A stretch of 64,000 bases of DNA from Escherichia coli (GTDB lineage Bacteria > Pseudomonadota > Gammaproteobacteria > Enterobacterales > Enterobacteriaceae). The translations under genes and the position numbers were made by a program. Shown here piece after piece: positions 37,906-49,338 of the stretch; position 1 is the first letter of the stretch, and each line of letters begins with the position of its first letter. The notes beneath the pieces are model-generated. The model worked only from the letters and a program-made list of their open reading frames with translations. It was not told the DNA's origin and did no database searches. The stretch is from assembly GCF_965641715.1 (NCBI RefSeq), contig NZ_OZ282453.1; one strand, 5' to 3'.

Positions 37906-39132
37906 ATGGGAATTAACGAAATCATCATGTACATCATGATGTTCTTTATGCTGATAGCTGCCGTAGACAGGATCCTGTCGCAGTTCGGCGGTTCTGCTCG
38001 TTTCCTCGGTAAGTTCGGTAAAAGTATCGAAGGATCAGGCGGTCAGTTCGAAGAAGGCTTTATGGCAATGGGCGCACTGGGCCTGGCGATGGTCGGTATG
38101 ACCGCGCTGGCACCGGTACTGGCTCACGTTCTCGGGCCGGTAATTATTCCGGTTTACGAAATGCTCGGCGCTAACCCATCGATGTTCGCCGGAACACTGC
38201 TGGCGTGCGATATGGGCGGCTTCTTCCTCGCCAAAGAGCTGGCGGGCGGCGACGTAGCCGCGTGGCTATACTCTGGGTTAATTCTCGGGTCGATGATGGG
38301 GCCAACGATTGTGTTTTCCATTCCGGTGGCGCTCGGCATTATCGAACCTTCTGACCGTCGTTATCTGGCGCTCGGCGTGCTGGCGGGCATTGTGACCATT
38401 CCGATTGGTTGTATCGCTGGTGGTCTGGTTGCTATGTACTCCGGTGTTCAGATCAACGGCCAGCCGGTGGAATTCACTTTCGCCCTGATCCTGATGAACA
38501 TGATCCCGGTGATCATTGTTGCGATTCTGGTGGCGCTGGGGCTGAAATTCATCCCAGAAAAAATGATCAACGGCTTCCAGATCTTCGCCAAATTCCTCGT
38601 TGCATTGATCACCCTCGGTCTTGCCGCTGCGGTAGTGAAATTCCTGCTTGGCTGGGAACTGATCCCCGGTCTGGATCCTATCTTTATGGCCCCTGGCGAT
38701 AAACCCGGTGAGGTGATGCGCGCCATTGAAGTTATCGGTTCTATCTCCTGCGTTCTGTTAGGGGCGTATCCGATGGTGCTGCTGCTGACCCGCTGGTTTG
38801 AAAAACCGCTGATGAGCGTCGGTAAAGTGCTGAATATGAACAACATCGCGGCAGCCGGCATGGTGGCAACGCTTGCCAACAACATCCCGATGTTCGGCAT
38901 GATGAAGCAGATGGATACCCGCGGCAAAGTCATCAACTGCGCCTTCGCCGTTTCCGCTGCTTTCGCCCTGGGCGACCACTTAGGCTTCGCCGCTGCCAAC
39001 ATGAATGCCATGATCTTCCCGATGATTGTCGGCAAGTTGATCGGCGGCGTAACGGCGATTGGCGTGGCGATGATGCTGGTGCCAAAAGACGACGCGACCG
39101 CGGCTAAAACCGAAGCGGAGGCACAATCGTGA
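37906..39132 (+). CDS. eutH: Ethanolamine permease/facilitator EutH
   Basis: 408 aa, polytopic membrane protein. Confidence 0.94.
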   Translation: MGINEIIMYIMMFFMLIAAVDRILSQFGGSARFLGKFGKSIEGSGGQFEEGFMAMGALGLAMVGMTALAPVLAHVLGPVIIPVYEMLGANPSMFAGTLLACDMGGFFLAKELAGGDVAAWLYSGLILGSMMGPTIVFSIPVALGIIEPSDRRYLALGVLAGIVTIPIGCIAGGLVAMYSGVQINGQPVEFTFALILMNMIPVIIVAILVALGLKFIPEKMINGFQIFAKFLVALITLGLAAAVVKFLLGWELIPGLDPIFMAPGDKPGEVMRAIEVIGSISCVLLGAYPMVLLLTRWFEKPLMSVGKVLNMNNIAAAGMVATLANNIPMFGMMKQMDTRGKVINCAFAVSAAFALGDHLGFAAANMNAMIFPMIVGKLIGGVTAIGVAMMLVPKDDATAAKTEAEAQS

Positions 39133-40532
39133 ACACTCGCCAGCTACTGAGCGTCGGTATCGATATCGGCACCACCACCACCCAGGTGATTTTCTCCCAC
39201 CTGGAACTGGTTAACCGTGCGGCGGTGTCGCAGGTGCCGCGCTACGAATTCATCAAACGCGAAATTAGCTGGCAAAGCCCGGTGTTCTTTACCCCTGTCG
39301 ATAAACAGGGTGGTTTAAAAGAAGCGGAACTGAAATCGCTGATTTTAGAGCAATATCAGGCTGCGGGCATTGCGCCGGAAAGCGTTGATTCTGGTGCCAT
39401 CATCATCACCGGTGAAAGCGCGAAAACCCGCAATGCTCGCCCGGCGGTGATGGCGCTCTCTCAGTCGCTGGGCGATTTTGTCGTCGCCAGCGCCGGGCCG
39501 CACCTCGAATCCGTGATCGCCGGTCACGGTGCCGGGGCGCAAACCCTTTCTGAACAACGGCTGTGTCGGGTACTGAATATCGACATCGGCGGTGGCACCG
39601 CGAACTACGCCCTGTTCGATGCCGGAAAAATCAGCGGCACTGCCTGCCTCAACGTCGGTGGTCGCCTGCTGGAAACCGACAGCCAGGGGCGCGTGGTTTA
39701 CGCTCATAAACCGGGGCAGATGATTGTGGATGAGTGCTTCGGCGCAGGCACCGATGCCCGTTCGCTGACCGGCGCGCAGCTGGTGCAGGTTACCCGGCGG
39801 ATGGCAGAGCTGATTGTCGAAGTGATTGACGGAACGCTTTCGCCGCTCGCGCAGGCATTAATGCAAACCGGTTTGCTGCCCGCAGGTGTTACGCCCGAAA
39901 TCATTACGCTTTCTGGCGGCGTGGGCGAATGTTATCGCCACCAGCCCGCCGACCCGTTCTGTTTTGCCGATATTGGCCCGCTTCTGGCAACGGCGCTGCA
40001 TGACCATCCGCGCCTGCGTGAGATGAACGTGCAGTTTCCGGCGCAAACCGTGCGCGCCACGGTGATTGGTGCGGGTGCACATACCCTTTCGCTCTCTGGC
40101 AGCACAATCTGGCTGGAGGGCGTACAACTGCCGCTGCGCAATTTGCCGGTGGCGATCCCAATTGATGAAACGGATCTGGTGGGTGCCTGGCAACAGGCGC
40201 TGATTCAGCTGGATCTTGATCCCAAAACTGACGCGTACGTGCTGGCGCTTCCCGCCTCGCTGCCTGTGCGTTACGCCGCGGTACTGACGGTCATCAACGC
40301 GTTGGTCGATTTCGTCGCGCGTTTTCCGAATCCGAATCCCCTGCTGGTGGTGGCCGGGCAGGACTTTGGTAAAGCTCTGGGCATGTTGTTGCGCCCACAG
40401 CTACAACAACTCCCGTTGGCAGTCATTGACGAAGTGATTGTCCGCGCGGGGGACTATATCGACATTGGTACGCCTCTTTTTGGCGGATCGGTTGTGCCGG
40501 TGACGGTGAAATCACTCGCATTTCCTTCCTGA
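39129..40532 (+). CDS. eutA: Ethanolamine ammonia-lyase reactivase EutA
   Basis: 467 aa; the TGA stop (40530-40532) lies inside the att core of the island. Confidence 0.94.
   Translation: MNTRQLLSVGIDIGTTTTQVIFSHLELVNRAAVSQVPRYEFIKREISWQSPVFFTPVDKQGGLKEAELKSLILEQYQAAGIAPESVDSGAIIITGESAKTRNARPAVMALSQSLGDFVVASAGPHLESVIAGHGAGAQTLSEQRLCRVLNIDIGGGTANYALFDAGKISGTACLNVGGRLLETDSQGRVVYAHKPGQMIVDECFGAGTDARSLTGAQLVQVTRRMAELIVEVIDGTLSPLAQALMQTGLLPAGVTPEIITLSGGVGECYRHQPADPFCFADIGPLLATALHDHPRLREMNVQFPAQTVRATVIGAGAHTLSLSGSTIWLEGVQLPLRNLPVAIPIDETDLVGAWQQALIQLDLDPKTDAYVLALPASLPVRYAAVLTVINALVDFVARFPNPNPLLVVAGQDFGKALGMLLRPQLQQLPLAVIDEVIVRAGDYIDIGTPLFGGSVVPVTVKSLAFPS
40511..40532. repeat. attL (bacterial arm + 8-bp core CTTCCTGA)
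   Basis: atcactcgcatttccttcctga. The core at 40525-40532 is repeated at 51725-51732, and atcact is also shared. Confidence 0.7.
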
Positions 40533-43356: not shown

Positions 43357-45723
43357 TCAACGTCTGCGCGGCTGCAAAATTCCTCCGGGTCGTTGTGATT
43401 CACGCTGCATCAGTCGCATCGCTGTGTTTTCTATGGTCTGCTGCAGCGCTTTTGAGTCTTCCTCTGTCCAGCCGTTGTTAGCCTGGATGTTGAACGTATT
43501 GTTCATCGTGATTCCGCCACCGCCTACCAGATCGCGGCCCGGTGTAACTCGTCCACCTTCACCCGGGATCATGTACTGTTTCCCGCCAGTGGATGTAAAT
43601 AGCTCCGGTACTCCGTGCTCCCCGACCCTATAAAGATTGCCACCGTTAACAGCCCCGCCGTTGTAACGAGCGCCAGCCAGTCCAAGCGTTTTGGCGGCAG
43701 CTACGCCAGTAGTAAGCCCGGTAAGTCCAGTGGCCCCAGCGCCGCCCATCGTGGCTACGTTAGCCAGGTATGCAGGAGTGGCCCACGCCGATCCTAATGC
43801 TGTAGCCTCTGCTAGTGCTTTAGCTGTTGCGGCTGCGTTTGCGGCTTCACCAATTAGCTGCTGTTTAACCCACTCAGCACCCATCTGGACAATGCCACCG
43901 ACCACAGAAGACAGGATCGTACTGCCAACGTTGGCAAGTGACTCTTGCAGCGATTGAGTACCGTTTATCAGTCCGGTAAATGCGCTGCCAGCGCCAGACG
44001 ATAACCCATCGACCATATTCCCGATGAGGCCATTTATATCGCTTTGTTTCTTCCACTGCTGCCACTGGAGATCCAGAACCCTTTGTTCATGTGCGATCTC
44101 TTCCTGGCGCAACTGCTCTTCGGTAGCCCCAAGATCTAGAAGCATTTGCTTGCGAACAGCCCATTCATTTTGGATCTTCTGTATTGGGTCAATCTGAGCT
44201 TTCTGCTTATCCTGCTCACTGACAAGACTGTCCCATTTCGCTTTCTGCTTGCGGATGGCTTCAGCTTCATCAATTGCTGCGAGTGTACTTGCTCGCTGTT
44301 TCGCGCTGATCAACCGTTTCTGCTCAGCCGCTTCCAGGTCTTCTACTGCTTTTTTCCGTTTATTGAGCGCCGCTAGTTCGGGATCGTATTTTTCCACCAA
44401 TGAAAGGCCGCTTGCTTCCTTACGTTCGCGTTCTCTTTGTGCCTGTTTGGCTGCCTGCTTAGCGGCGTTTTCTGCTTGTTTGGCTGCTCTTTCTTTCGCC
44501 CTGGTGTTCTCTTCTTCCTTGCGCTTATTCTCTTCTAACTCCTTGTTTTGTTCGCGTAATTTAACGATTTCCTCATGATGCGCCTTTGTCAGCTGGCCTT
44601 CTTTCAGTGCCCGATCTATATCAGCGTTTGCGTTGCCTTTTAGCTGTTCCTGTTTAACTTGCAGATGTTTAATCATCATTTCGCCAGTGGCAATCGCTGC
44701 CGCAGACGCTCCAGCATTCAGAGCTTCATTTAACGCTCTCTGACGTTCTTCTGCTGTTAATGCCTCGTTGCTGTATCGAAGTAGCGCATCAACGTATTTC
44801 TCCAGTTCTGCGCGGCCTGCCGCAGTTGCTGGTTCCATTGCTTTTAGGATGCTCAGAAGGCTTTGCGCTTCATAGGAAGACGGGTTTTTGCGGAACTGCG
44901 CCATAGCGTTATAAAGCGCCATAGCTTCACCCTCTGTGATTCTGTACTTAGCTCCCAGCCCTTCAATGACCGCTGATAACTGTTTGCCAAGCGCTGCACC
45001 GAATGCGCCTTCCTTGCTTAATTTGTTGAGCACTTCACTCAGTGAATTTCCTGACACGCCCAGCGCGTCGAGTTCTCTTGCTACCGTTCCCAGGTCGCCG
45101 CCTTTCATCCATCCTGCATTAGAAAATTCAGTGATAGCCCGGCCCGCTTCCCGCGTTTCTTCCTGGAGTGTTTTTAGCGCCCGCACGGCCTGCTCTTTCA
45201 TTACGGCGGCGGCAATGGCGTTGTTCTGTGTGGCTTCGTAATATGAATCACTGAAAGCGTTAACGCCCTGGGTGGATTTGCCGATCACGGCGTCGATTGA
45301 TGCTAATGCCTCCTTCATCCTTTCAGCGCTATCCGTTGCGTCGTCCATGCTGTCCGTTAGGCTGTTGGCAATCGCCCCGCCAATAGCCATCACCGCCCCC
45401 ATGACCGCACCGCCAGTACCGAAGGCAGCGGCAAGTTGTGCACCCTGCACAGCGAACGCCTGGAGCGCATTACCGCCCATCTGCAATTGAGTGGCAAGGT
45501 CTGCGATCTGGTATGATGCGTTACGGATTGCCGGGGAAAGGTTGGTTTTGACTGCGGCAGACGTTTTGGTCATCTGCGTGTTCAGTTTTTTGACGCCACT
45601 GTCAGCGCGTTTTGCGCCGCGTTCTATACTGTCAAAAGCCTGGTCCGCTTCTTGTTGTGCTGCCAGGAGTTTACCAGTACGGGCGTCGACCTCATAGTAT
45701 ATGGTCCCAAGATTCCCACTCAT
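43357..45723 (-). CDS. Phage tail tape-measure protein, lambda gpH-like, 788 aa, apparently full length
   Basis: The N-terminal YQIADLATQLQMGG segment, the long E/K/A/Q coiled-coil core, and the Gly-rich hydrophobic C-terminal region ending GG..YRVGEHGVPELF ... NNTFNIQANNG match my memory of gpH domain order. Confidence 0.8.
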   Translation of the reverse strand: MSGNLGTIYYEVDARTGKLLAAQQEADQAFDSIERGAKRADSGVKKLNTQMTKTSAAVKTNLSPAIRNASYQIADLATQLQMGGNALQAFAVQGAQLAAAFGTGGAVMGAVMAIGGAIANSLTDSMDDATDSAERMKEALASIDAVIGKSTQGVNAFSDSYYEATQNNAIAAAVMKEQAVRALKTLQEETREAGRAITEFSNAGWMKGGDLGTVARELDALGVSGNSLSEVLNKLSKEGAFGAALGKQLSAVIEGLGAKYRITEGEAMALYNAMAQFRKNPSSYEAQSLLSILKAMEPATAAGRAELEKYVDALLRYSNEALTAEERQRALNEALNAGASAAAIATGEMMIKHLQVKQEQLKGNANADIDRALKEGQLTKAHHEEIVKLREQNKELEENKRKEEENTRAKERAAKQAENAAKQAAKQAQRERERKEASGLSLVEKYDPELAALNKRKKAVEDLEAAEQKRLISAKQRASTLAAIDEAEAIRKQKAKWDSLVSEQDKQKAQIDPIQKIQNEWAVRKQMLLDLGATEEQLRQEEIAHEQRVLDLQWQQWKKQSDINGLIGNMVDGLSSGAGSAFTGLINGTQSLQESLANVGSTILSSVVGGIVQMGAEWVKQQLIGEAANAAATAKALAEATALGSAWATPAYLANVATMGGAGATGLTGLTTGVAAAKTLGLAGARYNGGAVNGGNLYRVGEHGVPELFTSTGGKQYMIPGEGGRVTPGRDLVGGGGITMNNTFNIQANNGWTEEDSKALQQTIENTAMRLMQRESQRPGGILQPRRR

Positions 45724-46012: not shown

Positions 46013-46243
46013 TTACTGGTCGCCGTTCAGTTCATGCAGAGTCTGTTCTGGCAATGAATCCAGCCAGTTTTCTGCATCCTCCCTGTAACACTCCAGGATG
46101 CAACGGTTTGTGAAGTTGATGAAAGCGGTCAGTGATTCTGCTTCGTCGTTCCTGTGCGTTCTCCTGGCGTGCTTGCGTAGTCGTTTCGCGTCTGCCAGTT
46201 GGTCATTGAGTATCTTCAGTCTGTCGGCAATATCATCGTTCAT
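46013..46243 (-). CDS. Hypothetical 76-aa helical protein
   Basis: GGGAGAG RBS 5 nt upstream of the ATG; protein-like charged helical composition; no family recognised. Confidence 0.55.
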   Translation of the reverse strand: MNDDIADRLKILNDQLADAKRLRKHARRTHRNDEAESLTAFINFTNRCILECYREDAENWLDSLPEQTLHELNGDQ

Positions 46244-46378
46244 GTCGTCTCTCCCTCGCGCGCGCGTCGTACTTGTCCGAAAATTACCCCCATAAAAGCG
46301 CCCCTCATATAGTGCAAAATCCCGGCTGACGCGGATCTCAGTGGGTTTTAGCAGTGAAAACTGACATCAAAAACGGCT

Positions 46379-46426
46379 CGCTAAGGTCCGCTAAGTATCC
46401 GCTATCGTTCGCTAACCCCCCGCTAA
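46379..46426. repeat. Five phased CGCTAA (minus strand TTAGCG) direct repeats
   Basis: Copies start at 46379, 46389, 46400 (CGCTAT), 46410 and 46421. The spacings of 10, 11, 10 and 11 bp equal one helical turn. Confidence 0.85.
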
Positions 46427-46430
46427 CCTA

Positions 46431-46796
46431 TTAGATATCGCATCCAACGCTATTGAGCTGGCTATGTATATCGGCGCGAATTAACTTCAGGCGTTTACAA
46501 AATTCGCGTTCTTCCGAATTAAGCTCGCGGCCACCTTGTTTCGAGGCAATGAGCTTGTTGATGGTGGAAAGCGAATATTCACTCCATATACGAAGCATTT
46601 GTCGCTTCATTGGTTGCTCGCTCAATGGTGAGTTTTTCAGGTCTGACACGCGCTCTGCGACGGTTCTTGCGATGCCTTGTACCACTCGTAGTGCCAACAT
46701 GATGATTTTCTCCGGACTTGTGCTAATATAGTTCCCGAACATTGTTTCGAGACTGCTTATCCTGTTTGTCTTGTCCGATTTGTTCATTGGTCGCAT
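46431..46796 (-). CDS. Hypothetical 121-aa protein
   Basis: ORF with protein-like composition (…IIMLALRVVQGIARTVAERVSDL…) but no obvious SD. A hairpin lies just upstream, and the stop abuts the CGCTAA array. Confidence 0.5.
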   Translation of the reverse strand: MRPMNKSDKTNRISSLETMFGNYISTSPEKIIMLALRVVQGIARTVAERVSDLKNSPLSEQPMKRQMLRIWSEYSLSTINKLIASKQGGRELNSEEREFCKRLKLIRADIHSQLNSVGCDI

Positions 46797-47801: not shown

Positions 47802-47993
47802 TCATTGGTGGCGAGCGCCTTTGTTTTTATAGAATTCCAAAATCTCAGATCGGATAAACTTAATTCTTGAGCCAATCGGACTGACCGGGACGGGCCAGCC
47901 TTTAATCTTGTTCATCCACCGGAATATTGTCCGACGGGTAACGCCGAATAAAGCTGCTACCTCGTTAACCGTCATTAATTCGCTATCATTCAT
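47802..47993 (-). CDS. AlpA-family (Phage_AlpA/HTH_17) transcriptional regulator / excisionase-like protein, 63 aa
   Basis: LMTVNEVAALFGVTRRTIFRWMNKIKGWPVPVSPIGSRIKFIRSEILEF is the typical AlpA/MerR-like HTH. GAGGTGAG RBS. Confidence 0.85.
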   Translation of the reverse strand: MNDSELMTVNEVAALFGVTRRTIFRWMNKIKGWPVPVSPIGSRIKFIRSEILEFYKNKGARHQ

Positions 47994-47996
47994 GTT

Positions 47997-48046
47997 CTCA
48001 CCTCAAAAAGTAGCGGTGAGGAAAATATGGAGAAAACCCTCACCGC
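47997..48046 (-). promoter_or_regulatory. Terminator-like leader hairpin immediately upstream of alpA; one arm duplicates the SD
   Basis: mRNA sense: GCGGTGAGG-N16-CCTCACCGC (9-bp perfect stem), then UACUUUUU, then GAGGUGAG (SD), then AAC-AUG. The 3' arm can also pair with the SD (CUCACC/GGUGAG). Confidence 0.55.
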
Positions 48047-48090
48047 GCCCTGAATGAAATTAAAGACCAACATTACTGTTGATACTTATT

Positions 48091-48096
48091 ATTATA
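48091..48096 (-). promoter_or_regulatory. Candidate -10 (perfect TATAAT) for the alpA operon
   Basis: Minus strand reads ggaaTATAATaa, about 95 nt upstream of the alpA ATG. The -35 is weak (ATGTGA). Confidence 0.3.
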
Positions 48097-48185
48097 TTCC
48101 TCCTGTCCCTGTTTCACATCTTTTACCATATAGTGAAAGGGGATATTCTGTAATGTTTACAAAACTTTTAATTAGCAAAAAATAA

Positions 48186-48306
48186 TTGCGCATCTCACGT
48201 AATGCAGGGATAATATTACTCAAGGGCTGGTTGCCCTTACTCAAAATGTGATCTATAACTACAACGATCTATTTCACTTCCCCGCTTTCTCCGGCGGGAT
48301 TTTTTT
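48186..48306 (+). ncRNA. Candidate ~85-nt plus-strand sRNA (promoter through terminator)
   Basis: TTGCGC-N17-GATAAT at 48186-48214. 5' hairpin aagggc-tggtt-gccctt at 48222-48238. 3' hairpin cccgc-N8-gcggg followed by a run of seven T at 48300-48306. Confidence 0.3.
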
Positions 48307-49118
48307 GCCTGCAATCTGGCACCATTGCGCACATTAAAATTAGATGCCATTTAAAAGCGATATAACGCGTTCTGCCGGGCTTAATTTTGGCTATCCACTT
48401 GGAAGGGTAAGCCTGTTTTGATTCGTCTGGCGTGGAATGGTGCGGCGGTAATATCAGATCTCAGCGTTCTGCGTGGTGGGATGAAATAGCCTGGCAGGAT
48501 TTGCGTGTGGTTTGCTCTCCCAAAAAATGGGGTAATGGCGCTGGCTGGATGGCAGGACTCCGCGCTGATTACTGGATGGCTGAAAATTTAATGAAATCGC
48601 ATCAATTTTAATGCGTCTAAATCGCTCTGTGGCGACGTGAAGTTTTCAGGTAAGCAAGTGTAGCTGTGTGGTGTGTTCATCGCGTTACTGGCACCATTCC
48701 GTTCGAATTTGGCGCTATCAGGATGGTTTGCGGTGGTCGGCGGCGGGGATAAACTTGCTTGAGTGGTCACCTCAGCCTGCTGTGCGTCGTGTGATGGTAC
48801 TGTCTGCACCTGGCTATACGCTGCTTTGCTGCTGTTTCCTGTCTGGTCTGTATACGCGATAAAACCCATCGGCTTTACAGTGAGTGAGTTTTTTGCGCTT
48901 TGCTTTCCATTCGGTTTGCTTACTGCTGCTGTGTGTCTGTGCGGTAGCTCAGAAAGCTGTCGATGATAACCATCACTGCCAGACCGTCTTTTGAGCTGGC
49001 GATTGCTCGAAGTCTTCCGAAGGTCCGCTGGGCTTGTTGCTTGTTTGTGTTCTTTTAAAATGCGCGCCTCTTACTTTCTCTTAAAAAGAAAAAAGGAATA
49101 TACAGATCTCATACTATG

Positions 49119-49273
49119 TGTGTCCCAAATGTCACACGTCATGGCCTGACCTGTATCCCAAATGTCACACGTCACCCTCTGACCTGTATCCCAAATGTCA
49201 CACGTACCTGTGTCCCAAATGTCACACGTCTATTGTTAATTAATTGTTGACCTGTGTCTCAAATGTCACACGT
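49119..49273. repeat. Five direct 21-bp iterons TGTRTCCCAAATGTCACACGT (putative ori)
   Basis: Copies at 49119-49139, 49152-49172, 49185-49205, 49209-49229 and 49253-49273 (one mismatch). Start spacings are 33, 33, 24 and 44 bp. Four copies are preceded by (G)ACCTG. An AT-rich tract with AGATCT lies at 49081-49110. Confidence 0.85.
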
Positions 49274-49290
49274 CTGTTGATGGTTTAAGT

Positions 49291-49320
49291 AATAAAAAGG
49301 GCCACCATTTTAGGTGACCC
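49291..49320 (-). terminator. Terminator after the Rep-like gene
   Basis: Minus strand reads gggtcacc-taaaat-ggtggccc followed by TTTTTATT. Confidence 0.7.
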
Positions 49321-49338
49321 ATTGATGCGTTTTAGTCG

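What the first reader, a model, noticed from the sequence alone, without database searches (positions are those of the whole stretch)
46257..46430. Five CGCTAA hexamers at exact helical-turn spacing upstream of the 76-aa/tape-measure unit
CGCTAA (TTAGCG in the sense of the genes) starts at 46379, 46389, 46400 (one mismatch), 46410 and 46421. The spacings are 10, 11, 10 and 11 bp. The array lies immediately after the stop of the 121-aa ORF. It is ~60-110 bp upstream of a weak candidate promoter (TTGCAC-N17-TATGGG; rc of 46312-46317 and 46289-46294) and of a 10-nt alternating CG run (46257-46266) next to the RBS of the 76-aa ORF. Same-face direct repeats are typical of cooperative activator sites (compare lambda CII TTGC-N6-TTGC), centromere-like parC/parS arrays, or small-terminase recognition sites. 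Any of these would be new for this element.
Basis: seen in the sequence. Interest (0 to 1): 0.6.

Follow-up and report, generated by a model that had tools for sequence, protein, structure and literature searches.

The report
Orphan small-terminase recognition array
Five same-face TTAGCG repeats in an E. coli phage-satellite-like island are real and belong to a conserved repeat array that normally sits just upstream of a small-terminase (DNA-packaging) gene and changes sequence with that gene, so they are most likely the terminase's docking (pac-like) site, left behind here after the terminase gene itself was replaced.

Summary
CGCTAA/CGCTAT starts at 46379, 46389, 46400, 46410 and 46421, with spacings 10/11/10/11. 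No such array appeared in 100 shuffles of the window.

The window is an E. coli eutA/eutB (CPZ-55-type) island. The array lies in a ~165-bp module found in only 3 of 5426 complete E. coli genomes.

In related islands the same module sits directly upstream of an Sf6-type small-terminase gene (terS). In the window only a 17-codon stub of that reading frame remains.

Across about 14 loci and 10 or more alleles, 5-9 hexamers at 10-11 bp phase lie between a small helical-protein gene (U) and terS. The hexamer class follows the TerS clade: WTAGCG, TYAGMG or YYAART. It does not follow the AlpA-like regulator or U.

The best explanation is a TerS-binding, pac-like array (inferred, not tested), and it is an orphan in this island. 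Activator, centromere and origin readings are weaker. I rate it a new variant of a known kind, of moderate interest.

The parts
46379..46426 (-). Array of five phased hexamers. In gene sense these are TTAGCG 46426-46421, TTAGCG 46415-46410, ATAGCG 46405-46400, TTAGCG 46394-46389 and TTAGCG 46384-46379. The period is 10.5 bp, with a 21-bp super-unit TTAGCG-N4-ATAGCG-N5.
   Evidence: The same register is seen in PEC145, L133, L138 and L127-131. Hexamer positions are 87% identical among four alleles, against 58% for spacers.
46348..46353 (+). Inverted hexamer-like copy: TTAGCA on the + strand, which is TGCTAA within GCTAAAACC in gene sense. It starts 31 bp (about 3 helical turns) from the start of the last direct unit. 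The corresponding distance is 21 bp in L127 and 31 bp in L138. Its function is unknown.
   Evidence: Read. It is CGCTAA in L127/L129/L131, TGCTAA in the window, PEC145 and L137, and CACTAA in L138.
46294..46378 (-). Conserved segment between the array and the terS start codon (GCTAAAACC..CCGCG..TTTTGCACTATATGAGGGG). It includes the SD-like GAGGGG at 46301-46306. It is present in all clade-1 terS loci, including those without an array.
   Evidence: Alignment. No conserved RNA structure was found (consensus energy -1.09 kcal/mol, 0 compensatory pairs). There was no sigma-70 hit.
46240..46293 (-). 17-codon stub ORF (MGVIFGQVRRAREGETT*) that begins at the former terS start codon (ATGGGGG, 46293-46287). 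Its stop overlaps the ATG of the 76-aa ORF (ATGA). It contains the (CG)5 run at 46257-46266.
   Evidence: In PEC145 and L133 the same ATGGGGG opens a 214-aa Sf6-type TerS. Downstream of TAATTTTCGGACAAG the window matches the ATCC 8739-type backbone.
46431..46796 (-). U gene. The ORF is 121 aa as listed. The probable product is about 89 aa from the internal Met, as NCBI annotates in the near-identical record L001. It is a helical-bundle protein of unknown function found upstream of the array in most related islands.
   Evidence: The AlphaFold model is all-helical with pLDDT 84. There was no significant PDB fold match or sequence match.
46286..46690 (.). Recombinant (mosaic) segment relative to the common ATCC 8739-type island. 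It comprises the 3' two-thirds of U, the array, the proximal segment and the terS start codon. Flanks on both sides are 90-100% identical to ATCC 8739.
   Evidence: Alignment; 209 genomes match only the flanks at 90-95% identity, and 2 match the whole stretch.
46013..46243 (-). 76-aa ORF, which occupies the position that terS holds in related islands. It is unrelated to the ORFs that follow terS elsewhere.
43357..45723 (-). 788-aa tape-measure-like protein gene, downstream of the unit.
   Evidence: phrog_1538, E 8e-112; PF06791, below cut-off.
47802..47993 (-). AlpA/excisionase-like wHTH gene (63 aa). It was considered as the array reader and rejected.

Best explanation
**What it is.** The five hexamers are the recognition array of an Sf6-type small terminase (TerS). 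This is a pac-like docking site in which several HTH domains of the ring-shaped TerS oligomer each contact one hexamer on one face of the DNA.

**Normal arrangement.** In related E. coli satellite-like islands the order is: U gene, then an array of 5-9 phased hexamers, then (in clade 1) a ~75-bp conserved segment, then the SD, then terS.

**What happened here.** A recombination event brought in the 3' part of U, the array, the proximal segment and the terS start codon. The junction falls right after ATGGGGG, so terS is replaced by the 76-aa/tape-measure unit of the common ATCC 8739-type backbone. The array in this window is therefore an orphan site. No cognate terS is present in the window, or in the two complete genomes that carry the same module.

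**Shown.**
- The array exists and is not a chance feature.
- It is conserved in phase upstream of terS.
- Its hexamers are more conserved than its spacers.
- Its sequence class co-varies with the TerS clade.
- The junction structure is as described above.

**Inferred.**
- TerS is the protein that binds the array.
- Binding directs packaging, or possibly TerS autoregulation.
- The site may still be usable in trans.
For: 1. **Position next to terS.** In PEC145 the 81%-identical module lies between a PPIase gene and a gene that reaches the Pfam Sf6_terminase cut-off (40.2 bits against 27). A profile of that TerS family matches Sf6 gp1 (PDB 3HEF) at E = 1e-9.

2. **Independent islands.** Contexts of TerS homologues show the array in the same register: L133, L138 and L127-L131. 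L127-L131, L138 and L139 carry a different integrase, AlpA class and insertion site. The arrays have 5-7 units at 11/10/11/10 spacing.

3. **Two more TerS clades.** TerS144 (13 of 5426 complete genomes) and TerS137 also have 7-9 phased units filling the U-terS gap.

4. **Covariation with TerS.**
   - Clade 1 goes with WTAGCG (T2 and A3 invariant in 22 units).
   - TerS144 goes with TYAGMG.
   - TerS137 goes with YYAART.
   - TerS identity between loci of different classes is at most 53%; within the TerS clades it is at least 65%.

5. **No covariation with AlpA or U.**
   - The AlpA-like protein is 84-95% identical, with an identical HTH, in the window, L143 and L214/L215. These three have three different hexamer classes.
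   - AlpA is identical in L127 and L147, which also differ in class.
   - U is 86% identical between L143 and L214, and 75% between L133 and L145.

6. **Constraint on hexamers.** Hexamer positions are 87% identical among four alleles, against 58% for spacers.

7. **Copy-number changes in whole units.** Variants differ by exactly one 11-bp unit: L145 against L211, and L215 against L214.

8. **No room for a promoter.** In TerS144/TerS137 loci the last unit is 16-17 nt from the ATG, so there is no space for a promoter between the array and terS.

9. **Precedent.** The SPP1 pac region has three sets of direct repeats spanning the promoters and the start of terS (PMC4737164). The P1 pac site has seven hexanucleotide repeats (PMC11260489).
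Against: 1. **terS without an array.** Four terS loci (L126, L135, L136, L137) have an intact clade-1 terS and the proximal segment but no array anywhere in the fetched DNA. The array is therefore not indispensable for every clade-1 TerS. These four share a distinct TerS N-terminal variant.

2. **Linkage.** The array is physically adjacent to terS, so part of the covariation could reflect linkage rather than function. It is equally adjacent to U, however, and does not follow U.

4. **Closest phage relatives.** The nearest phage TerS relatives (mEp021 group, 33% identity) have no such array upstream.

5. **Known Sf6/P22-type sites.** From general knowledge, known P22-type pac sites are single sites inside terS, not phased repeats.

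6. **No binding or packaging data exist.**

7. **This window lacks terS.** Whatever the array does elsewhere, it may do nothing here.
Confidence: 0.55

Rival explanations
1. Transcriptional operator or activator array. An RDF-like winged-helix protein polymerises on the phased hexamers and switches the terS/late unit on or off, as Apl, Cox and Xis-type proteins do. The reader would be the island's AlpA-like protein, or a helper-phage protein.
For: The architecture matches known RDF operators almost exactly. Phage 186 Apl binds 6-bp operators present as 5 or 7 direct repeats at 10-11 bp spacing (PMC7498355). AlpA is the activator of E. coli PICIs (PMC6092414). In clade-1 loci the array would span about -41 to -88 relative to a TGnTAAAAC element (my reading).
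Against: AlpA class does not predict hexamer class. The same AlpA occurs with three hexamer classes, and arrays of one class occur with AlpA proteins only 17-26% identical.

There is no second array near the att sites or elsewhere in the island, as RDFs usually have.

No sigma-70-like promoter is found next to the array. TAAAAC lacks the conserved -7 T.

In TerS144/TerS137 loci the array abuts the SD.

A helper-encoded reader cannot be tested here.
Confidence: 0.15
2. Iterons of a replication origin. The 21-bp super-repeat (TTAGCG-N4-ATAGCG-N5, 2.5-3.5 copies) is bound by the island's HTH_36/DnaD-like initiator.
For: The 21-22-bp periodicity and 3-4 copies are typical of iteron origins (general knowledge). 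The islands encode HTH_36/DnaD_N-like proteins with weak PHROG hits to replication initiators.
Against: The array is never next to the initiator or helicase genes and always next to terS. There is no adjacent AT-rich unwinding region. In the TerS144/137 clades the period is 11 bp, not 21 bp, and the sequence follows TerS. In E. coli PICIs the origin follows pri-rep (PMC6092414).
Confidence: 0.05
3. No sequence-specific function. The array is a slippage-prone tandem repeat, or a conserved boundary sequence that serves only as a recombination joint between the U and terS modules. Alternatively it acts at the RNA level in the U-terS intercistronic region.
For: Copy number changes by whole units. 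The module sits at mosaic junctions. Some terS loci lack it. In TerS144 loci the repeats contain SD-like GAGG strings.
Against: Hexamers are clearly more conserved than spacers (87% against 58%). The 10.5-11 bp phase is kept in all 10 or more alleles although their sequences differ. Three distinct hexamer classes track the TerS clade. There is no conserved RNA fold.
Confidence: 0.12
4. Centromere-like (parC/parS) partition site.
For: Only the generic resemblance of phased direct repeats to parC of R1 (general knowledge).
Against: No ParA/ParM/ParR/ParB-like gene appears among the island ORFs scanned. The element is integrated in the chromosome. The array is tied to terS in all relatives.
Confidence: 0.02

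Closest known systems
SPP1 / SF6 (Bacillus) pac region
   Same: It has sets of short direct repeats, lies immediately upstream of and into the small-terminase gene, and is bound by a ring-shaped TerS with peripheral HTH motifs (PMC4737164).
   Different: The array here is one homogeneous run of 5-9 hexamers at exact helical phase, not three different box types. The TerS is of the Sf6 (Shigella phage) Pfam family, not the SPP1 G1P family. The element is a satellite-like island, not a phage. No cleavage site has been mapped.
Phage P1 pac site (seven hexanucleotide repeats)
   Same: It is a packaging site built from multiple copies of one hexamer (PMC11260489).
   Different: From general knowledge, the P1 hexamers (TGATCA/G) flank the cleavage site in two groups, are Dam-methylation controlled, and are read by PacA, which is unrelated to Sf6-type TerS. 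None of these points was tested here.
Apl (phage 186) / Cox (P2) / Xis operators
   Same: The geometry is nearly identical: 6-bp sites, 5 or 7 direct repeats, 10-11 bp apart, bound cooperatively on one face of the DNA (PMC7498355).
   Different: Those arrays occur both at attP and at a promoter switch, and follow the RDF gene. Here there is one array per island, next to terS, and it does not follow the AlpA/RDF-like gene.
SaPI/PICI terS-dependent packaging (TerS_S recognising a satellite-specific pac site)
   Same: The island is integrase-bearing and AlpA-bearing, and in relatives it carries its own terS. The presumed logic is the same: redirect helper packaging to the island (PMC6092414).
   Different: Helper dependence, excision and packaging are untested for these eut-site islands. 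They carry tape-measure-like and HK97 gp10-like genes, which classical PICIs do not. In my searches I found no paper defining a pac site for a Gram-negative PICI.

Membership tests
Small-terminase recognition (pac-type) site | Lies in or next to the small-terminase gene of the same element | tested here: met
   This holds in relatives: PEC145, L133, L138, L127-131, L143, L145-148 and L211-215 all have the array directly upstream of a PF20901 terS. It does not hold in the window itself, where terS is replaced and only its start codon remains.
Small-terminase recognition (pac-type) site | Sequence specificity matches the cognate TerS (co-variation) | tested here: met
   Three TerS clades correspond to three hexamer classes. 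AlpA and U are discordant with the classes. Linkage remains a caveat.
Small-terminase recognition (pac-type) site | Bound by TerS in vitro or in vivo | not testable with these tools
   Needs EMSA, footprinting or ChIP.
Small-terminase recognition (pac-type) site | Required in cis for packaging, with packaging series starting nearby | not testable with these tools
   Needs transduction assays and end mapping of encapsidated DNA.
Small-terminase recognition (pac-type) site | Present wherever the cognate TerS is present | tested here: not met
   L126, L135, L136 and L137 have clade-1 terS but no array.
RDF/AlpA (Apl/Cox/Xis-type) operator array | Short direct repeats one helical turn apart | tested here: met
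   Spacing is 10/11 bp with 5-9 units.
RDF/AlpA (Apl/Cox/Xis-type) operator array | Repeat sequence follows the RDF/AlpA allele | tested here: not met
   The same AlpA occurs with three hexamer classes, and the same class occurs with AlpA proteins only 17-26% identical.
RDF/AlpA (Apl/Cox/Xis-type) operator array | A matching array at the attachment site or at a promoter switch | tested here: not met
   No second phased array was found in the island or near the att or int regions. No promoter-like site lies at the array.
Iteron replication origin | Iterons adjacent to the initiator gene and an AT-rich unwinding element | tested here: not met
   The array is 3 kb from the HTH_36 gene in the window, and lies next to terS in all relatives. 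No AT-rich block is present.
Centromere-like parC/parS | Cognate partition genes (ParA/ParM plus an adaptor) in the element | tested here: not met
   There are no par-like Pfam or PHROG hits among the island ORFs scanned.
Activator-dependent sigma-70 promoter (lambda CII / OmpR / PhoB style) | A recognisable -10 element at a fixed distance downstream of the repeats | tested here: inconclusive
   TATGGG is the terS start codon, not a -10 element. A conserved TGnTAAAAC lies 31 bp from the last unit in clade-1 loci, but it lacks the -7 T and is absent in TerS144/137 loci.

The most novel reading that the evidence does not exclude
The arrays form a modular address code for ring-shaped small terminases. 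Each of 5-9 HTH domains of one TerS oligomer reads one hexamer while the DNA wraps around the ring. Changing the hexamer class (WTAGCG, TYAGMG, YYAART) re-addresses packaging among competing E. coli satellites. An orphan array like the one in this window would let a terS-less island be packaged by a TerS supplied in trans by another satellite or a helper, which would amount to hitch-hiking on a hitch-hiker.
Probability: 0.2. Interest if true: 0.8.

Novelty: new variant of a known kind. Interest (0 to 1): 0.55.

Why it matters
How ring-shaped small terminases pick out their own DNA is still unclear. For SF6/SPP1 the isolated DNA-binding domain shows little sequence specificity (PMC4737164).

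These islands offer a natural series: three related Sf6-type TerS clades, each paired with a differently spelled but identically phased hexamer array. The copy numbers (5-9) are close to the subunit number of the ring. That would make the "DNA wraps around the ring, one HTH per helical turn" model directly testable by array swaps and point mutations.

It would also give a first candidate pac site for Gram-negative PICI-like satellites.

For this particular island it changes the reading of the locus. The array is not the control region of the 76-aa/tape-measure unit. It is a leftover, possibly still usable in trans, of a lost packaging module.

Tried and rejected
1. **Genome-contig scan.** I used a degenerate four-hexamer pattern. 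None of the hits is homologous to the module.

2. **Viral-contig scans.** Exact and degenerate array patterns, and a proximal-segment pattern, gave nothing or unrelated tandem repeats. None of these loci contains TerS or U homologues.

3. **TerS-profile searches.** The viral-contig search gave one distant hit. The metagenome-contig search gave none.

4. **blastn of the module.** There was no match against phages or plasmids.

5. **RNA explanation.** There is no conserved fold in the proximal segment and no Rfam match at the array.

6. **AlpA as reader.** Rejected on covariation. P. aeruginosa AlpA (PMC9371919) is a different, Q-like protein and not a useful model.

7. **U as reader.** It is a generic helical bundle with no DNA-binding fold match, and it is discordant with hexamer class.

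8. **The 76-aa ORF as a remnant of the post-terS ORF.** No similarity was found.

9. **Phage relatives.** The mEp021-group TerS has no upstream array.

10. **Cognate terS elsewhere.** I looked for a cognate terS elsewhere in genomes carrying the window's module. Only PEC145 has a clade-1 terS among 5426 complete genomes.

Full report
**1. The observation**

On the + strand CGCTAA starts at 46379, 46389, 46410 and 46421, and CGCTAT at 46400. The spacings are 10, 11, 10, 11. All island genes are on the - strand, so in gene sense the units read TTAGCG, TTAGCG, ATAGCG, TTAGCG, TTAGCG. The first unit begins 5 nt after the stop codon of the 121-aa ORF (46431-46796).

The word CGCTAA is not enriched in the window (39 matches against 31.6 expected). 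A search for any hexamer repeated five times at 10/11-bp steps, with at most one mismatch in total, finds only this site. It found none in 100 dinucleotide shuffles. The array is real and not a chance feature.

**2. Context**

The window is an E. coli-type chromosome. The island lies between eutA (39129-40532) and eutB (from 51702). This is the CPZ-55/intZ site. From the eutB end, the island carries:
- an integrase;
- an HTH_36 protein;
- an AlpA/excisionase-like 63-aa protein;
- ORFs of 108, 180 and 121 aa;
- the array;
- a 76-aa ORF;
- a 788-aa tape-measure-like protein.

About 210 complete E. coli genomes carry the common (ATCC 8739-type) version of this island. There the homologue of the 121-aa ORF, which I call U, stops 38 bp before the 76-aa ORF, and there is no array.

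Relative to that backbone the window has a foreign segment at about 46286-46690. It comprises a diverged 3' part of U plus ~145 bp that contains the array. The exact module occurs in only two complete genomes (USMARC-49610, Z142-6). An 81%-identical copy occurs in a third, PEC145. There are no phage or plasmid matches.

**3. What the module normally precedes**

In PEC145 the module lies directly upstream of a 214-aa gene that passes the Pfam Sf6_terminase threshold (40.2 bits against 27; phrog_1482). A profile of this family matches the Shigella phage Sf6 small terminase gp1 (PDB 3HEF) at E = 1e-9.

A GGAGG-type SD sits 7-9 nt upstream in all relatives. In the window only ATGGGGG survives. It opens a 17-codon ORF (46293-46240) whose stop overlaps the start of the 76-aa ORF. 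From TAATTTTCGGACAAG onward the sequence is the ATCC 8739 backbone.

So the candidate promoter is a ribosome-binding site plus start codon of a lost terS gene. The consensus scan finds no sigma-70 promoter in the intergenic region.

**4. Conservation**

I looked at genomic contexts of TerS homologues.
- L133 has U - array - terS.
- L138 and L127-131 are a different island type. They have a 388-aa integrase, a PF05930 AlpA and a DEAD helicase plus DnaD-like genes, and they are inserted next to a patatin gene. They nevertheless carry 5-7 units (ATAGCG, ATAACG, TTAGTG and similar) in the same 11/10/11/10 register upstream of terS.

Among four alleles, hexamer positions are 87% identical, spacers 58% and the proximal segment 69%. 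T2 and A3 are invariant in 22 units.

Two further Sf6-type TerS clades were found through U homologues:
- TerS144 is present in 13 of 5426 complete genomes.
- TerS137 is present in L214 and L215.

In both, the whole U-terS gap is a run of 7-9 units with an ~11-bp period. The last unit starts 16-17 nt before the ATG. Alleles differing by exactly one 11-bp unit exist: L145 against L211, and L215 against L214.

Four terS loci (L126, L135-137) have the proximal segment but no array.

**5. Who reads it?**

| TerS clade | Hexamer class |
|---|---|
| Clade 1 (214-217 aa) | WTAGCG |
| TerS144 | TYAGMG (a mix of TCAGAG and TTAGCG) |
| TerS137 | YYAART (TCAAAT, TTAAGT) |

Identities separate the candidates.

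- **AlpA-like protein.**
  - It is 84-95% identical, with an identical recognition helix, in the window, L143 and L214/L215. These carry three different classes.
  - It is identical in L127 and L147, which also differ in class.
  - Arrays of one class occur with AlpA proteins only 17-26% identical.
- **U.** It is 86% identical between L143 and L214, and 75% between L133 and L145. Both pairs differ in class.
- **TerS.** It is at most 53% identical between loci of different class, and at least 65% within the TerS clades.

U is predicted to be a plain helical bundle (pLDDT 84) with no significant fold or sequence match. TerS is the only neighbour with a recognised HTH DNA-binding domain.

The array lies between U and terS, adjacent to both, yet it segregates with terS. 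This is what is expected if array plus terS form one functional unit. Linkage cannot be fully excluded, and the small ORF after terS is co-inherited as well.

**6. Mechanism proposed**

Sf6-type TerS forms a ring with HTH domains on the outside (general knowledge; PDB 3HEF family match). A run of 5-9 identical half-sites, one per helical turn, on one face of the DNA is the natural target for several neighbouring subunits of such a ring. The DNA would bend around it.

The nearest precedents are the SPP1 pac region, with direct-repeat boxes spanning the promoters and the start of terS (PMC4737164), and the seven hexamers of P1 pac (PMC11260489). I therefore read the array as a pac-like TerS docking site, possibly also serving TerS autoregulation.

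The following steps are inferred, not shown:
- TerS binding;
- a role in packaging;
- helper dependence of these islands.

**7. The window itself**

No TerS homologue is encoded in the 64-kb window. Among 5426 complete genomes only PEC145 carries a clade-1 terS, so the two genomes with the window's exact module have none.

The array here is therefore an orphan. It is either a recent recombination relic or a site usable by a TerS supplied in trans. Its hexamers are intact (4 TTAGCG plus 1 ATAGCG), but the three known copies are identical, so decay cannot be judged.

**8. Rivals**

- **Apl/Cox/Xis-type operator.** This matches the geometry best (6-bp sites, 5 or 7 repeats, 10-11 bp; PMC7498355). 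It fails on covariation with AlpA, on the absence of a second array at att and on the absence of a promoter.
- **Iteron origin.** This is unlikely. The array is never next to the initiator gene, there is no AT-rich element, and it follows TerS.
- **Partition site.** No par genes are present.
- **Functionless slippage repeat or RNA element.** This is contradicted by hexamer-over-spacer conservation, strict phase retention and the lack of a conserved fold. The array-less terS loci keep it alive at low probability.

**9. Novelty and verdict**

In the paper searches I ran I found no description of phased hexamer arrays upstream of terS in E. coli satellites, and no defined pac site for a Gram-negative PICI. 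Pac sites built from direct repeats are known, so this is a new variant of a known kind.

One of its three interpretations (terminase recognition site) is supported by comparative evidence. Its promoter proposal is not, and the link to the 76-aa/tape-measure unit is secondary.

Confidence in the TerS-site reading is about 0.55. Interest is 0.55.

Noticed in passing
window 43357-45723 (-); L146 4357-7002; L147 4322-6949: Small integrase-bearing islands at the eut site encode a 730-790-aa tape-measure-like protein. In some relatives they also encode an HK97 gp10-family (head-tail) protein right after terS. No other tail or capsid genes were seen in the stretches I examined. This is an unusual cargo for a satellite-like element, and its role (tail-length manipulation, interference or something else) is unknown.
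   Followed up: partly
window 47994-49338: A 1.3-kb stretch between the AlpA-like gene and the HTH_36 gene has no convincing ORF. It gives only sub-threshold Rfam matches (LhrC at 26.6 bits, STnc430 at 25.4 bits, both far below gathering score). It might hold promoters, an origin or an sRNA.
   Followed up: partly
window 46240-46293 (-): A 17-codon ORF starts at the former terS ATG and ends in ATGA, overlapping the start of the 76-aa ORF. If translated, it could couple translation of the 76-aa ORF to the old terS ribosome-binding site. The (CG)5 run at 46257-46266 lies inside it and is also present, as CGCGCGCGCA, in the array-less ATCC 8739 backbone.
   Followed up: partly
L145 3455-3564 vs L211 355-453; L215 4890-5003 vs L214 4900-5003: Pairs of loci whose TerS proteins are identical (for L145/L211 the U protein too) differ by exactly one 11-bp repeat unit in the array (8 against 7 units, and 9 against 8). 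The array expands and contracts in whole helical turns.
   Followed up: yes
L137 5001-5654; L126 6001-6651: The array-less terS loci share one TerS N-terminal variant (MEESNTTEILPGPGRPTKYTRRR..SFTRIGK). This holds even where the rest of the protein differs: L137 is 66-69% identical to the PEC145/L133-type TerS, against 86% for L126. TerS may therefore itself be mosaic, with a DNA-binding-domain allele that goes with absence of the array.
   Followed up: partly
L001 12352-14272; L004 13105-15025: In the two complete genomes that share the window's module, intZ and eutB are both truncated and abut each other (a deletion across the island/eutB junction). The window has both genes intact.
   Followed up: no
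L003 9166-9666 and 10729-11708: The PEC145 island carries a cyclophilin-type PPIase gene immediately upstream of the array, in place of U. It also carries a frameshifted ISKpn26-family IS5-like transposase gene nearby, so that island has been rearranged.
   Followed up: no
L140 (phage mEp021) 2447-2932: The closest phage relatives of the island TerS N-terminal half are the mEp021-group coliphages (about 33% identity). They could be candidate helper phages. They have no hexamer array upstream of terS.
   Followed up: partly
L005-L124 (genome contigs pattern hits): Many unrelated MAGs (Cloacimonadota, Paludibacteraceae, Limisphaerales) contain multiple loci matching a phased CGYTAW pattern, apparently dispersed 11-bp-period tandem repeats. 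They are not homologous to the module, and I did not examine them further.
   Followed up: no
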